Part shown: piece after piece, positions 8,259 through 12,382 of the stretch
How positions within the stretch are numbered: position 1 is the first letter of the stretch
Layout: each line of letters starts with the position of its first letter
Origin: a virus
Taxonomy: Duplodnaviria; Heunggongvirae; Uroviricota; Caudoviricetes
Virus record (IMG/VR): IMGVR_UViG_2563366820_000002
Span: 1-47,800 of that record
Reading direction: 5' to 3' (one strand)
DNA length: 47,800 nt
Program-made: the position numbers and the translations under genes
The notes under the pieces: generated by a model
The model's database searches: none
What the model was told of the DNA's origin: nothing
The model's input: the letters and a program-made list of their open reading frames with translations, nothing else

Positions 8259-9227
8259 TTAGTAGGTTATTTTTGTTGCGAATACTTCGCCTTTTACGAT
8301 GGCTGTTATGATATTTTTAGCAACATCTTCTGATGCGCCAACCTTGATAAGGTCAGCAAGTATTTTGTTATTTACTTCTTTCCGGTGAGCTTTATCCTTT
8401 GCTCTACGCTCTTCTTCGTCCTTGATTCTTTTTTCTTCTGCTATTCTGGCTTGCTCTTTTGCTTCAGCCTCGCGCCGGATTCGTTCAGCCTCCTCCTGTG
8501 CTTTTCGGCGTTCTGCTTCAATTGCCGCATGCTTTTCTCTTTCAGCTCGTTCTGCTGCCTCTTTTGCTTCGCGCTGTGCTCGTTGCTCGGCTTCAATGCG
8601 TTCACGCTCTGCACGTTCCGCTGCGGCCTTAGCTTCTGCTTCTCGCCTTGCTGCTGCTTCAATTTCGGCTTTTGCCTTTGCTTCGGCTTCTGCTCTGGCT
8701 TTCTCTTCAGCTTCTCTTTTTAAGCGTTCTTCATGCTCTCGCTTTTCCTGCTCCGCTTTGAGTCTTGCCTCTTCTCTTTGGCGGTCAAATTCGCGATCCA
8801 TCAAAATCGCTATTTCATGGTCAGACTCAATTTGCTTTGCGAGAGCTTCAGCTGCTGCCTTAGCTTCTTCTTCGGCTTTAATCCGCGCCTGTTCTTCCTC
8901 ATAATCAGTAAGAGGCTGGCGCGCCTTGGCTTTCAGTTCATCAAGGCGATCACGCACTGTCTTGCGGTTGGCATCAATTAGCTTTGGAATTTCCTTCAGT
9001 TCAGCAACAAGGTCTTTGCCAAGACCATCGAGATATGTTTTCGTCTGCGCAACTTTATACGCCAGAGAAGCGATCTCCTTTCTGCCCTTTGCCGTTGTGA
9101 TATCAGGCACAAAGGACATAACTTCACGTTCAACCTTTTGAAGGATTTCTTCAATCTGGTCGGCAGACTGAAATACAGTCATTGCATTTGCTTTTTCAAT
9201 AACAACTAAATCTGTTACTTCACTCAT
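8259..9227 (-). CDS. Hypothetical protein with long Glu/Ala/Lys/Arg-rich predicted coiled-coil, 322 aa
   Basis: ATG at 9227 with AAGGAGG RBS; globular N- and C-terminal parts flank ~130 residues of EAKAKAE/RREAE repeats. Confidence 0.75.
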   Translation of the reverse strand: MSEVTDLVVIEKANAMTVFQSADQIEEILQKVEREVMSFVPDITTAKGRKEIASLAYKVAQTKTYLDGLGKDLVAELKEIPKLIDANRKTVRDRLDELKAKARQPLTDYEEEQARIKAEEEAKAAAEALAKQIESDHEIAILMDREFDRQREEARLKAEQEKREHEERLKREAEEKARAEAEAKAKAEIEAAARREAEAKAAAERAERERIEAEQRAQREAKEAAERAEREKHAAIEAERRKAQEEAERIRREAEAKEQARIAEEKRIKDEEERRAKDKAHRKEVNNKILADLIKVGASEDVAKNIITAIVKGEVFATKITY

Positions 9228-9630: not shown

Positions 9631-9646
9631 CTATTCATATCCTCAT

Positions 9647-9675
9647 AGATAAAAATCGCCCTCACATTAGAGGGC
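9647..9675 (-). terminator. Intrinsic terminator (leftward)
   Basis: Hairpin GCCCTC-N6-GAGGGC followed on the minus strand by GATTTTTAT. Confidence 0.6.
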
Positions 9676-9792
9676 AAAGAAGATTTCCAATAATCAGAAC
9701 AAGTCGGCTCCTGTTTAGTTACGAGCGACATTGCTCCGTGTATTCACTAGTTGGAATGAATACACAGTGCAGTGTTTATTCTGTTGTTTATG

Positions 9793-9820
9793 CCAAAAAT
9801 AAAGGCCGACTATGCGGCCT
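9793..9820 (-). terminator. Intrinsic terminator after the 149-aa membrane protein gene
   Basis: Hairpin AGGCCG-N5-CGGCCT followed on the minus strand by TTTATTTTT; gene stop at 9825. Confidence 0.65.
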
Positions 9821-9824
9821 GAAA

Positions 9825-10274
9825 TCACTTAACCAATGATGCTGCATATTCGATAAGGTAAAGCTTTGGGGCCAGCCAAATTTTTAACCAAGTCATATTG
9901 GTTACTACACCAATAATAAAAATCCCCCACAGAGTCAAAACTCCAACCAATGGCATGATAAGAAGGTTAATATCTCCTTTGCTATCCCAAACCATTGTCG
10001 GCCTGTATTTGGGATTTCCCCTCTCCCATGAGTATCCTTCATCACCGATTTTACCTGTCTCAACTCTTTGGCACTGCTTCTTCATAAACCAGAAAACCAG
10101 TGGGATTGTTAGAATGGCTATTAATGTTTTAATCAGACTGTCAACCATATTCCATAGCAGCAACTGATGAACAACATCAGGAATCTGCGCTTGGCTGAAT
10201 GAAACAGCCGCGTCTATTCCATTGCTGGCTTTTTGCAGTAGTTCTACGAGAATCTTGTTTGCTTGTTCTTCCAT
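9825..10274 (-). CDS. Membrane protein, 149 aa (possible superinfection-exclusion type)
   Basis: ATG at 10274 with AGGGGA RBS; hydrophobic helices (LIAILTIPLVFWF, LLIMPLVGVLTLWGIFIIGVV); own terminator downstream. Confidence 0.7.
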   Translation of the reverse strand: MEEQANKILVELLQKASNGIDAAVSFSQAQIPDVVHQLLLWNMVDSLIKTLIAILTIPLVFWFMKKQCQRVETGKIGDEGYSWERGNPKYRPTMVWDSKGDINLLIMPLVGVLTLWGIFIIGVVTNMTWLKIWLAPKLYLIEYAASLVK

Positions 10275-10333
10275 ATATCCCCTTGATTGTAATAAGCATG
10301 AAATTATTTACGGCCAAAAAATAAAGGCCACCA

Positions 10334-10534
10334 TCAGGCAGCCTTGTTATTCTGTTTACCAAGTTCTCTGGCAATCATTGCCGTTGTTCGTATTGCCCAT
10401 TTATCGACATATTTCCCATCCTCCATTACAGGAAACATTTCTTCAGGCTTAACCATGCATTCCGATTGCAGCTTGCATCCATTGCATCGCTTGAATTGTC
10501 CACACCATTGATTTTTATCAATAGTCGTAGTCAT
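10334..10534 (-). CDS. Ral-like restriction-alleviation protein, 66 aa
   Basis: Cys-rich CGQFKRCNGCKLQSEC; same length as lambda ral and adjacent to N; assignment from memory and position. Confidence 0.5.
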   Translation of the reverse strand: MTTTIDKNQWCGQFKRCNGCKLQSECMVKPEEMFPVMEDGKYVDKWAIRTTAMIARELGKQNNKAA

Positions 10535-10604
10535 ACGGATAGTCCTGGTATTGTTCCATCACATCCTGCGGATGCTCTTCGAACTCTTCAAATTCTTCTT
10601 CCAT
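10518..10604 (-). CDS. Highly acidic 28-aa peptide ORF (MEEEFEEFEEHPQDVMEQYQDYPYDYDY)
   Basis: ATG at 10604 with GAGGTG RBS 8 nt after the N stop; overlaps the Ral-like start. Confidence 0.4.
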   Translation of the reverse strand: MEEEFEEFEEHPQDVMEQYQDYPYDYDY

Positions 10605-10612
10605 ATCTCACC

Positions 10613-11279: not shown

Positions 11280-11648
11280 TTAGTCAGCGAAGGTTAAGAC
11301 GAGAATTACCTTAATGATGTCTGCTACAACAGACACGGCCATAGATAAACCAAAGACGATCCAAGCCATAGAGATGTCTTCACTACCATCGTATAGAGTT
11401 CCGTAATCACTGGTGTAAGGCGTAAATGTCGCGCCTTGATACAATAGGTATAAGCTTGATCCATAGAGGATAAATGCAGATATCCCTTGTATTGCTATGA
11501 TCACCAGAATCATGAAACGAGCTGATCTATGCGCCCAAGCCTGGCTTATTTTTTCTGATAGAGATTTCGCAATAAAAGCATGCGCTAAGCCGTAAATTGT
11601 CGATATTGCCAACATCCCCAAAAAGCTTGCTATAGCGGTTCCAACCAT
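11280..11648 (-). CDS. Membrane protein, 122 aa, downstream of cI in the lambda rexAB slot
   Basis: ATG at 11648 with AAGGGG RBS 17 nt after the cI stop (track start 11669 is TTG); three predicted transmembrane helices. Confidence 0.7.
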   Translation of the reverse strand: MVGTAIASFLGMLAISTIYGLAHAFIAKSLSEKISQAWAHRSARFMILVIIAIQGISAFILYGSSLYLLYQGATFTPYTSDYGTLYDGSEDISMAWIVFGLSMAVSVVADIIKVILVLTFAD

Positions 11649-11665
11649 ATTCGCCCCTTGCGTGA

Positions 11666-12382
11666 TCAAACCAGCCTTAGTTTTGTCTCAATTGCAACGC
11701 CTATAATCTTGCAGTTTCCATTGATTGGCACGAGAGGCCATGCAGGATTAAGTCCCTTGAGGTATTTATTCCCGCCGTCGATTATCAGCTTCTTGAATGT
11801 TGCTTCGTTAGAGTCAGAAAGTTTTGCTATGACCAAGCTGCCGTTGATCGCCTCCCTTCCGGTATCGAAAAGAACGAATGTTCCCTCTGGAATGCTTAAC
11901 CCAACCGGTGCCGTCATTGAATCACCTTCCACTTTAAGCCAGAACGCATTACCTTGAATATGCGCGTCAGACTCAAGCCAAACATCTATGTCTTTAATGG
12001 TGTATGGTTCGCATGCTTCACACCACGAGCCAGCCTGGATACTGCTTAACACCGGATACCTCTTTCCTGCTCTGTATTCCCCTGCATACCTTACGTTGGC
12101 ATCGCTCTTAAGGCTTTCTGCCTGTTCTGCAACCTTGGCAGCAATTGACTGGCTAAAATCAGCAATTGAGACTTGCAACAATCGTGCAAAACCAGATGCA
12201 ACCTCAACGTTTAGCGCGTTTCTGCCATTAAGATAATGCCCTACCGCTCCTTGGGTGATACCCAGTTCATCAGCAATTGAATATTGGGTTATTCCCAATT
12301 CTTTCTTTTTTGACTCATACAAAGCCTTAAGCCGCTTAGCGTCTTCGAGCTGTTCTGTCGTCAGTGATTTTTTATTTTCCAT
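11666..12382 (-). CDS. cI: CI repressor (HTH plus S24 LexA-like autopeptidase domain)
   Basis: 238 aa; N-terminus LTTEQLEDAKRLKALYESKKKELGITQ parallels lambda CI; C-terminal domain has GDSM and FKKL catalytic motifs; divergent from cro. Confidence 0.9.
   Translation of the reverse strand: MENKKSLTTEQLEDAKRLKALYESKKKELGITQYSIADELGITQGAVGHYLNGRNALNVEVASGFARLLQVSIADFSQSIAAKVAEQAESLKSDANVRYAGEYRAGKRYPVLSSIQAGSWCEACEPYTIKDIDVWLESDAHIQGNAFWLKVEGDSMTAPVGLSIPEGTFVLFDTGREAINGSLVIAKLSDSNEATFKKLIIDGGNKYLKGLNPAWPLVPINGNCKIIGVAIETKLRLV

What the first reader, a model, noticed from the sequence alone, without database searches (positions are those of the whole stretch)
9825..10274. Terminator-bracketed membrane protein gene in the N-proximal early region
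A 149-aa protein with two or three hydrophobic helices has a good RBS and is followed directly by an intrinsic terminator. By my recollection of the lambda map this gene sits between the Ea10-like and Ral-like genes as an insertion. Membrane proteins in this region of lambdoid phages (for example sieB) mediate superinfection exclusion.
Basis: partly seen in the sequence, partly recalled or inferred. Interest (0 to 1): 0.45.

Follow-up and report, generated by a model that had tools for sequence, protein, structure and literature searches.

The report
Orphan phage membrane-protein cassette after ral
A real 149-residue membrane-protein gene has been inserted as a self-contained cassette into the terminator downstream of ral in this lambda-like prophage; it belongs to a very large family of phage proteins with no known function, and is a reasonable but untested candidate for blocking competing phages.

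Summary
A 149-aa ORF lies on the minus strand at 9825..10274. It has an AAGGGGA ribosome-binding site, two strong hydrophobic helices and a terminator-like hairpin on each side.

Compared with phage lambda, it is a 521-bp insertion inside lambda's post-ral terminator. The insertion is flanked by a 17-nt direct repeat.

The protein matches PHROG 3054 (function unknown) and nothing in Pfam, NCBIfam, PADLOC or the PDB. Profile comparisons with lambda SieB, P22 SieB and P22 SieA are null.

The family is large: 1,879 clusters at 50% identity. It occurs in lambdoid and P22-like prophages and also in virulent N4-like, phi92-like and jumbo phages. It always occurs as a single gene, at many different genome positions. 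Some copies are reversed inside late operons, and one such copy has its own promoter-like site and terminator hairpin.

The N- and C-terminal motifs are under strong purifying selection. The transmembrane hairpin and the loop between the helices vary.

Published RNA-seq of a 99%-identical orthologue shows background expression in LB, and N-independent expression in DMEM and in macrophages.

Superinfection exclusion at the inner membrane is the best guess (about 0.35). It is not demonstrated, and the SieB analogy is positional only.

The parts
9825..10274 (-). Coding sequence of the 149-aa small membrane protein (PHROG 3054), stop codon included
   Evidence: ORF list. phrog_3054 match at E=2.8e-64 over residues 1-149. 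516 homologues. dN/dS 0.15-0.24. Two transmembrane segments.
10278..10284 (-). Shine-Dalgarno-like sequence AAGGGGA, 3-4 nt before the ATG
   Evidence: Read directly from the sequence.
10314..10345 (-). Upstream terminator-like hairpin (9-bp stem AAGGCTGCC/GGTGGCCTT) with a T-run, immediately after ral. It corresponds to lambda's post-ral terminator.
   Evidence: Terminator scan. Folding energy -14.2 kcal/mol, z-score -2.55. Alignment with lambda.
9793..9820 (-). Downstream terminator-like hairpin (6-bp stem AGGCCG/CGGCCT) with a T-run, starting 5 nt after the stop codon. Its 3' half and T-run are the duplicated part of the lambda terminator.
   Evidence: Terminator scan. Folding energy -9.8 kcal/mol, z-score -1.1. 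Alignment A1.
9792..9808 (.). Left copy of the 17-nt direct repeat GCCAAAAATAAAGGCC(G) that flanks the insertion
   Evidence: the repeat finder family D1, start-to-start spacing 521. Alignment with lambda.
10313..10330 (.). Right copy of the direct repeat, GCCAAAAAATAAAGGCC(A)
   Evidence: the repeat finder family D1. Alignment with lambda.
9809..10329 (-). The 521-bp cassette that is absent from lambda. Its boundaries are ambiguous within the repeat.
   Evidence: Alignment A1 of window, lambda, Sf6, Gally and HF4s. Lambda annotation shows only 182 bp between ea10 and ral.
9656..9677 (-). Second downstream terminator hairpin, annotated as tL2A-like in Sf6. It lies in the conserved non-coding stretch between the cassette and ea10.
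   Evidence: Terminator scan. Folding energy -14.2 kcal/mol, z-score -4.8. Sf6 annotation.

Best explanation
The feature is a single-gene accessory cassette. It entered the leftward early (pL) operon by recombination within the terminator downstream of ral, and it duplicated the 3' half of that terminator. It encodes a 149-aa inner-membrane protein of the orphan family PHROG 3054. The protein has an N-terminal helical region of about 40 residues, a two-helix membrane hairpin with a 38-residue loop, and a conserved C-terminal helix.

In this phage the gene is transcribed mainly by N-antiterminated pL transcription after infection or induction. It probably also has weak, condition-dependent, N-independent expression in the lysogen.

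My best guess for function is inferred, not shown. The protein would act at the cytoplasmic membrane to exclude competing phages, in the manner of T4 Imm, P22 SieA or HK97 gp15. It would interfere with genome entry or with an early membrane step of a superinfecting phage. On this reading the conserved terminal motifs provide the common activity or assembly, and the variable hairpin and loop provide anchoring or specificity.

Shown here: the gene and its anatomy, the insertion, family membership, the conservation pattern and the mobility of the cassette. Inferred: the timing of expression in this phage. Speculative: the exclusion mechanism.
For: Anatomy and insertion.

Membrane protein.

Family size: phrog_3054 at E=2.8e-64; 516 and 1,425 hits; 1,879 clusters at 50% identity.

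The family occurs as a stand-alone mobile unit at unrelated positions:
- after ral, or directly after N;
- after the lysis genes;
- inside head-tail modules;
- in reverse orientation inside late operons, one copy with a TTGACG-16-TATTGT (TG-extended) promoter-like site and, read by eye, a terminator hairpin that the automated scan did not call.
Reversed copies of this kind are the classic arrangement of morons. No partner gene is conserved.

The family is present in early regions of virulent phages, as T4 imm is. A Ralstonia jumbo phage has three tandem paralogues that keep the terminal motifs but differ in the core.

Selection: strong purifying selection on the termini (dN/dS 0.04-0.17 with saturated dS), TM2 near 1.0, and invariant motifs in 141 representatives.

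Expression: RNA-seq of the 99%-identical orthologue GALLYPH_30 in the LF82 lysogen. It is at background in LB. In DMEM at 6 h it is at log2 about 7.0, while upstream N is about 4.0 and the downstream gene about 4.85 (PMC9928086 S1 Table).
Against: No experiment links any family member to exclusion. There is no sequence or fold similarity to SieA, SieB, T4 Imm or any PADLOC model. Fold searches return only generic helical hairpins.

No consensus sigma-70 promoter lies between the post-ral terminator and the start codon. The authors of the Gally study classed Gally as having no morons under their LB criterion.

The same slot and operon hold host-takeover and counter-defence genes: ral, kil, cIII, and gene 17 in P22.

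The most conserved parts are the termini, not the loop or transmembrane region that an injection blocker might be expected to use for recognition. Membrane topology is ambiguous from charge bias.
Confidence: 0.35

Rival explanations
1. It is a host-takeover or counter-defence factor. On this reading it is an early membrane protein whose conserved N- and C-terminal motifs bind a conserved host inner-membrane component, such as a membrane-associated defence or abortive-infection effector, a protease, or a transport or division machine. This would benefit the phage's own lytic growth rather than exclude other phages.
For: It lies in the pL operon among ral, kil and cIII-type host modulators. P22 carries gene 17, which counteracts exclusion by a Fels-2 lysogen, at the equivalent position. 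Homologues are early or middle genes in virulent N4-like and phi92-like phages and look stably kept within those genera. The conserved motifs persist across phages of Escherichia, Salmonella, Klebsiella, Vibrio, Pseudomonas and Ralstonia, which suits a conserved host target. There is no consensus promoter in this window.
Against: Reverse-oriented copies inside late operons of temperate-looking phages and a Serratia prophage, one of them with its own promoter-like site, are not where early counter-defence genes usually sit. The orthologue is transcribed independently of N in a lysogen under some conditions. A screen of about 200 phage accessory genes has no matching sequence in its supplements, so there is no experimental hint either way.
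Confidence: 0.3
2. It is a membrane-permeabilising or lysis-timing protein: holin-like, antiholin-like, or a RexB-type abortive-infection effector. It would alter membrane potential either to time lysis or to abort a secondary infection.
For: It is a small two-helix membrane protein with a polar start to TM1 (N42, D45, S46, K49) and an acidic N-terminal tail, reminiscent of holin architectures. The terminal helices are modelled at low confidence, which is compatible with oligomerisation. One allele sits just after the lysis cassette in PhiR46_1.
Against: None of 13 diverse members matched a Pfam holin family at E<=1. The gene lies in early operons in most phages, and an early holin would be harmful. 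The lambdoid relatives that carry the gene have annotated lysis genes of their own (Gally holin, lysin and Rz; PhiR46_1 lysozyme R and Rz). There is no partner sensor gene, as there is in Rex.
Confidence: 0.12
3. It is a spurious or decaying ORF with no function, and the terminators are just the tL2-region terminators of the pL operon.
For: There is no functional annotation anywhere. The hairpin after the ORF is not much more stable than shuffled sequence (z-score -1.1).
Against: dN/dS is 0.15-0.24 with saturated synonymous divergence in the conserved ends. There are full-length homologues in 1,879 clusters and in 238 of 5,426 complete E. coli genomes. Motifs are invariant. The transcript is detected.
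Confidence: 0.02

Closest known systems
PHROG 3054 (phage orthologous group, function unknown)
   Same: Full-length HMM match at E=2.8e-64. Same length, same two-helix architecture and same conserved terminal motifs. The orthologue in phage HF4s is annotated 'TM helix-containing protein', Sf6 gp34 is a mosaic allele, and the Pseudomonas phage Lyrsu01 homologue is annotated 'gene 34 protein [Shigella phage Sf6]'.
   Different: Nothing differs. This is the family it belongs to, and the family has no assigned function.
P22 SieA (inner-membrane superinfection-exclusion protein encoded by a moron)
   Same: Small inner-membrane protein (162-164 aa against 149 aa), encoded by an accessory insertion in a lambdoid/P22-like phage. 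SieA has a conserved motif predicted to lie on the cytoplasmic side, in a protein that is otherwise weakly conserved (PMC10883804).
   Different: No detectable homology (hhalign probability 0.35%). SieA has three predicted transmembrane helices and the motif FxRYPxEAxxFNK, which this protein lacks. SieA lies in the ant moron with its own annotated promoter. SieA is confined to P22-like phages, whereas this family also occurs in virulent phages.
Lambda / P22 SieB
   Same: Same general neighbourhood: the N-ral region of the early left arm.
   Different: No homology (hhalign probability 0.1-0.15%). SieB lies between N and ral on the opposite strand with its own promoter. This window has no sieB at all: only 78 bp separate ral and N. 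Oslo carries both genes side by side, so they are not alternatives.
T4 Imm (early two-helix membrane protein of a virulent phage that blocks DNA injection; from my own knowledge of the family)
   Same: Small two-helix inner-membrane protein expressed early. This family is likewise found in early regions of virulent phages.
   Different: None of 13 diverse members matched any Pfam family of this kind. Imm is about 83 aa and lacks the long conserved N- and C-terminal helices. No functional data exist for this family.
HK97 gp15 and other morons as defined by Juhala et al. (gene added between neighbours, with its own promoter and terminator)
   Same: The gene is absent from lambda at the same site, it is followed by its own terminator, and relatives sit at many moron sites, including reversed copies with promoter-like sites.
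   Different: In this window no consensus promoter was found. GC content (40.3%) is like its immediate neighbours ea10 and ral (38.8% and 41.3%). Lysogen expression of the orthologue is weak and condition-dependent.

Membership tests
PHROG 3054 | Significant full-length match to the family HMM | tested here: met
   E=2.8e-64, residues 1-149 against profile positions 1-137 of 137.
PHROG 3054 / extended family | Conserved motifs F26-x5-P32-D-V-x2-Q37-L-L-x-W41 and W129-L-x-I-x2-A135-P-K-x2-L-x-E142-Y-A-A-x-L, with the second motif at the C-terminus | tested here: met
   All of these residues are present in the window protein and are conserved in 82-100% of 141 representatives.
SieB (lambda / P22) | Sequence homology to SieB | tested here: not met
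   hhalign probability 0.1% against lambda SieB and 0.15% against P22 SieB.
SieB (lambda / P22) | Location between N and ral, transcribed opposite to pL from its own promoter | tested here: not met
   The gene lies downstream of ral on the pL strand.
SieB (lambda / P22) | Abortive exclusion of superinfecting phages | not testable with these tools
   This needs a phage challenge experiment.
SieA (P22) | Sequence homology and the FxRYPxEAxxFNK motif | tested here: not met
   hhalign probability 0.35%. The motif described in PMC10883804 is absent from the sequence.
T4 Imm-type superinfection immunity (Pfam) and Pfam holin families | Match to the Pfam models | tested here: not met
   hmmscan gave no family for the window protein and no Imm or holin family for any of 13 diverse members at E<=1.
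Known anti-phage defence systems (PADLOC-DB 2.0) | Match to any defence-protein model | tested here: not met
   0 families at E<=1.
Moron (Juhala/Hendrix definition) | Present between genes that are adjacent in a related phage | tested here: met
   Lambda has ea10 and ral separated by 182 bp with one terminator. The window has an extra 521 bp.
Moron (Juhala/Hendrix definition) | Own terminator | tested here: met
   Hairpin 9820..9803 with a T-run directly after the stop codon. In the Gally RNA-seq the next gene downstream drops about 4.5-fold.
Moron (Juhala/Hendrix definition) | Own promoter / expression from the repressed prophage | tested here: inconclusive
   No consensus sigma-70 site in the 49 bp upstream; the best by-eye candidate, TTGGCC-17-TATTAC, matches 8 of 12 positions. 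The orthologue in the LF82 lysogen is at background in LB but about 8-fold above upstream N in DMEM at 6 h. Relatives elsewhere include one with a clear promoter-like site.
Moron (Juhala/Hendrix definition) | Base composition different from the surrounding genome | tested here: inconclusive
   The insertion is 40.3% GC against 45.7% for the window, but similar to neighbours ea10 (38.8%) and ral (41.3%).

The most novel reading that the evidence does not exclude
PHROG 3054 could be a previously unrecognised, very widespread superinfection-exclusion or membrane-immunity family. It would be shared by temperate and virulent phages of Gamma- and Betaproteobacteria. Its conserved N- and C-terminal motifs would engage a universal step of phage genome entry or a universal inner-membrane partner, and its exchangeable hairpin and loop cassettes would tune specificity. 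It would then be a single-gene module that moves between moron sites and early operons.
Probability: 0.25. Interest if true: 0.65.

Novelty: new member of a known kind. Interest (0 to 1): 0.38.

Why it matters
Small membrane proteins make up a large, mostly unannotated share of phage accessory genes. This family has at least 1,879 clusters at 50% identity. It is present in about 4% of complete E. coli genomes and in virulent phage groups, including N4-like and phi92-like phages. It has no Pfam entry and no known function.

If it excludes other phages, it would affect phage cocktail design and prophage-mediated resistance. It would also give a compact new tool for blocking infection. If it is a host-takeover factor, its conserved motifs point to a conserved membrane target.

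The locus also illustrates how a cassette can enter an operon by recombination within a terminator.

Tried and rejected
- Pfam, NCBIfam, PADLOC and PDB sequence searches, with the single protein and with 13 diverse members, gave no meaningful hit.
- Two AlphaFold2 runs (44 and 62 sequences) gave only moderate confidence (pLDDT 68.7 and 67.6), and the conserved termini were poorly placed.
- Foldseek against BFVD found nothing at E<=0.001.
- The afdb50 library was unavailable.
- The second homologous-protein search, with a mixed profile, returned mostly the same close relatives. A third search with distant members added some diversity.
- Charge-bias topology analysis across 141 representatives was contradictory. 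The flank after TM1 is basic, and the flanks before TM1 and before TM2 are acidic. I therefore do not assert which side the conserved termini face.
- I looked for a conserved partner gene next to distant homologues and found none.
- Rfam found nothing in the conserved non-coding flank.
- Literature searches for phrog_3054, Sf6 gene 34, and a screen of phage accessory genes found no functional data.
- The svsR prophage sRNA lies elsewhere, at the 3' end of cI, and is unrelated.
- A K+-channel-like reading of the loop sequence 'GYSW' was dropped, because the motif is not conserved across the family.

Full report
**What is there**

The finding's coordinates hold an ORF on the minus strand, 9825..10274, with an ATG start and 149 aa. 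AAGGGGA lies 3-4 nt upstream of the start.

Hydropathy gives two strong membrane segments at about residues 43-65 and 102-126, and a moderately hydrophobic C-terminal helix. AlphaFold2 predicts helices 3-29, 33-68, 106-125 and 128-148, with a short beta-hairpin in the 38-residue loop (pLDDT 68.7). A second run with a more diverse alignment gave the same layout at pLDDT 67.6.

On the same strand, terminator-like hairpins with T-runs lie directly after the stop codon (9820..9803), after ral and 50 nt before the start codon (10345..10324), and further downstream (9677..9656). The region holds 5 such sites against 1.6 expected. Their energies are -9.8, -14.2 and -14.2 kcal/mol, and the hairpin after the ORF is the weakest.

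The neighbours are an ea10 homologue, ral, N and kil.

**It is an insertion**

Lambda has 182 bp between ea10 and ral. Alignment of the window with lambda, Sf6, Gally and HF4s shows that the window carries an extra 521 bp exactly within lambda's single post-ral terminator.

The insertion is flanked by the direct repeat GCCAAAAA(A)TAAAGGCC, which is the descending arm plus T-run of that terminator. Each copy now pairs with a different upstream arm, and this is why the gene is 'bracketed' by terminators.

The GC content of the insertion (40.3%) is below the window average (45.7%) but similar to ea10 and ral.

**Family**

The protein matches phrog_3054 (function unknown) at E=2.8e-64. It matches nothing in Pfam, NCBIfam, PADLOC or PDB sequences, even when 13 diverse members are scanned.

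Profile comparisons with lambda SieB, P22 SieB and P22 SieA give probabilities of 0.1-0.35%. Fold searches return nothing specific.

The family is large:
- 516 proteins from the single query, all labelled 'hypothetical';
- 1,425 and 1,297 from profile queries;
- 1,879 clusters at 50% identity with E<=1e-3, nearly all 120-180 aa.

The gene is in 238 of 5,426 complete E. coli genomes.

**Distribution and context**

tblastn finds the family in 181 phage records. These include lambdoid and P22-like temperate phages (Gally, HF4s, Sf6, CUS-3, HK633, N7, Oslo). They also include virulent N4-like Schitoviridae, phi92-like Justusliebigvirus, Vibrio phages, Pseudomonas phage Lyrsu01 and a Ralstonia jumbo phage.

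In the virulent phages the gene sits among early or middle genes. The jumbo phage has three tandem paralogues that keep the terminal motifs and differ in the core.

The gene always occurs alone, with no conserved partner. Its positions are unrelated:
- after ral (window, Gally, Sf6, CUS-3) or directly after N (HF4s, HK633);
- between the lysis genes and Nu1 in PhiR46_1;
- inside head-tail modules;
- in reverse orientation inside late operons. One such copy has a TTGACG-16-TATTGT promoter-like site with an extended -10. I also read a GC-rich hairpin with a T-run just after its stop codon, which the automated scan did not call. Another reversed copy lies between terL and portal in a Serratia prophage.

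This is the behaviour of a mobile, self-sufficient accessory module.

**Conservation pattern**

Across 141 representatives, two blocks are conserved in 82-100% of sequences: F26-x5-P32-D-V-x2-Q37-L-L-x-W41, and W129-L-x-I-x2-A135-P-K-x2-L-x-E142-Y-A-A-x-L at the very C-terminus. In contrast, TM1, the loop (11-72 residues) and TM2 vary.

Lambdoid alleles are mosaic. The window, Sf6/CUS-3 and HK633/N7 types share the first 40 or so residues and the last 20 or so residues, but have different cores.

Within the window-type allele, dN/dS is 0.15-0.24 overall. It is 0.04-0.09 for the N-terminal block, about 0.17 for the C-terminal block against Oslo (synonymous sites are saturated against PhiR46_1), 0.2-0.3 for the loop, and about 1.0 for TM2. 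The terminal blocks therefore carry the constrained function.

Charge bias does not settle the topology. The flank before TM1 is acidic, the flank after TM1 is basic and the flank before TM2 is acidic, so each simple topology violates the positive-inside rule at one helix.

**Expression**

No consensus sigma-70 promoter lies in the 49 bp between the post-ral terminator and the start codon. In this phage the main route should therefore be N-antiterminated pL transcription; this is an inference.

Published RNA-seq is available for E. coli LF82, whose Gally prophage carries a 99%-identical orthologue (GALLYPH_30) with the same upstream 60 bp. It shows:
- background expression in stationary LB (log2(fpkm+5) 4.5/3.9), which led the authors to call Gally devoid of morons;
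- 7.1/7.0 in DMEM at 6 h, and about 7.0 in macrophages;
- in DMEM at 6 h, upstream N is 3.9/4.1 and the next gene downstream is 4.8/4.9 (PMC9928086 S1 Table).

This local peak, independent of N, suggests either weak conditional autonomous transcription or a stabilised, hairpin-bounded transcript. It also suggests that the downstream terminator works.

**Interpretation**

The part I am confident in is what the thing is: a real accessory gene for a small inner-membrane protein of an orphan pan-phage family, inserted as a cassette into a terminator.

The mechanism is inferred. Superinfection exclusion or another membrane-level block on competing phages is the most likely function (about 0.35). 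The reasons are the moron-like mobility, the reversed copies with a promoter-like site, the early position in virulent phages (as for T4 imm), the tandem diversified paralogues and the membrane location.

A host-takeover or counter-defence role is nearly as likely (about 0.3). The gene's neighbours in the pL operon are host modulators, P22 carries gene 17 at the equivalent slot, and the motifs are conserved across phages of distant hosts.

A holin-like or abortive-infection pore role is less likely (about 0.12). A non-functional ORF is essentially excluded.

This window in fact lacks sieB, and phage Oslo carries both genes.

**Verdict**

The gene is a new member of a known kind: a phage accessory cassette that encodes a small membrane protein. 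Its interest is moderate. It comes mainly from the size and breadth of the uncharacterised family and from how easily its function could be tested.

Noticed in passing
window 11280..11669 (-): A 129-aa multi-helix membrane protein (phrog_6534, function unknown) whose start overlaps the stop of the cI-like repressor gene (11666..12382). It sits where lambda has rexA/rexB. It is probably co-transcribed with the repressor in the lysogen, so it is a stronger candidate than the finding for a lysogen-expressed exclusion function.
   Followed up: partly
window 10535..10612: Only 78 bp separate ral and N, so this phage has no sieB gene. Lambda and P22 carry sieB in this position on the opposite strand.
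   Followed up: partly
window 9631..9810: A non-coding stretch of about 180 bp between ea10 and the cassette is 95-99% identical in roughly 300 phage records, and is nearly invariant between lambda, Sf6, Gally and HF4s. Part of it is annotated in Sf6 as 'boundary sequence bsq4' with a tL2A-like terminator. It holds a 19-nt imperfect inverted repeat (9728-9746 / 9757-9775). There is no Rfam match. It may serve as a recombination linker, or it may hold an unrecognised regulatory RNA or site.
   Followed up: partly
window 8259..9227 (-): A 322-aa protein with a very long Glu/Ala/Lys/Arg-rich coiled-coil centre (phrog_1376 and phrog_21365, function unknown; Sf6 gp33-like). In HF4s it is annotated as an 'antitoxin / phi80 Agt-like' protein. 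Several long spurious ORFs on the opposite strand overlap its repetitive region.
   Followed up: no
L010 (Ralstonia phage RsoM2USA) 3169..4900: Three tandem paralogues of the family (genes 387, 390 and 392). They share the N- and C-terminal motifs, have extended N-termini and differ in the transmembrane and loop cores.
   Followed up: yes
L018 7946..8465 and L027 6802..7438: Family members lie in reverse orientation inside structural-gene operons. In L018 the copy has a TTGACG-16-TATTGT promoter-like site, and I read a GC-rich hairpin with a T-run after its stop codon that the automated scan did not call. In the Serratia prophage (L027) a 62-aa ORF precedes the gene on the same strand.
   Followed up: partly
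L016 (phage PhiR46_1) 2501..2950: A 76%-identical allele sits between the lysis genes (R, Rz) and terminase Nu1, the other classic lambdoid moron site. It is followed by a hairpin without a strong T-run.
   Followed up: partly
L002 (phage Gally) and PMC9928086 S1 Table: Several other small Gally genes of unknown function (GALLYPH_20-22, _52, _13, _14, _17) also rise strongly in DMEM or macrophages but not in LB. A moron definition based on LB alone therefore misses condition-dependent prophage genes.
   Followed up: no
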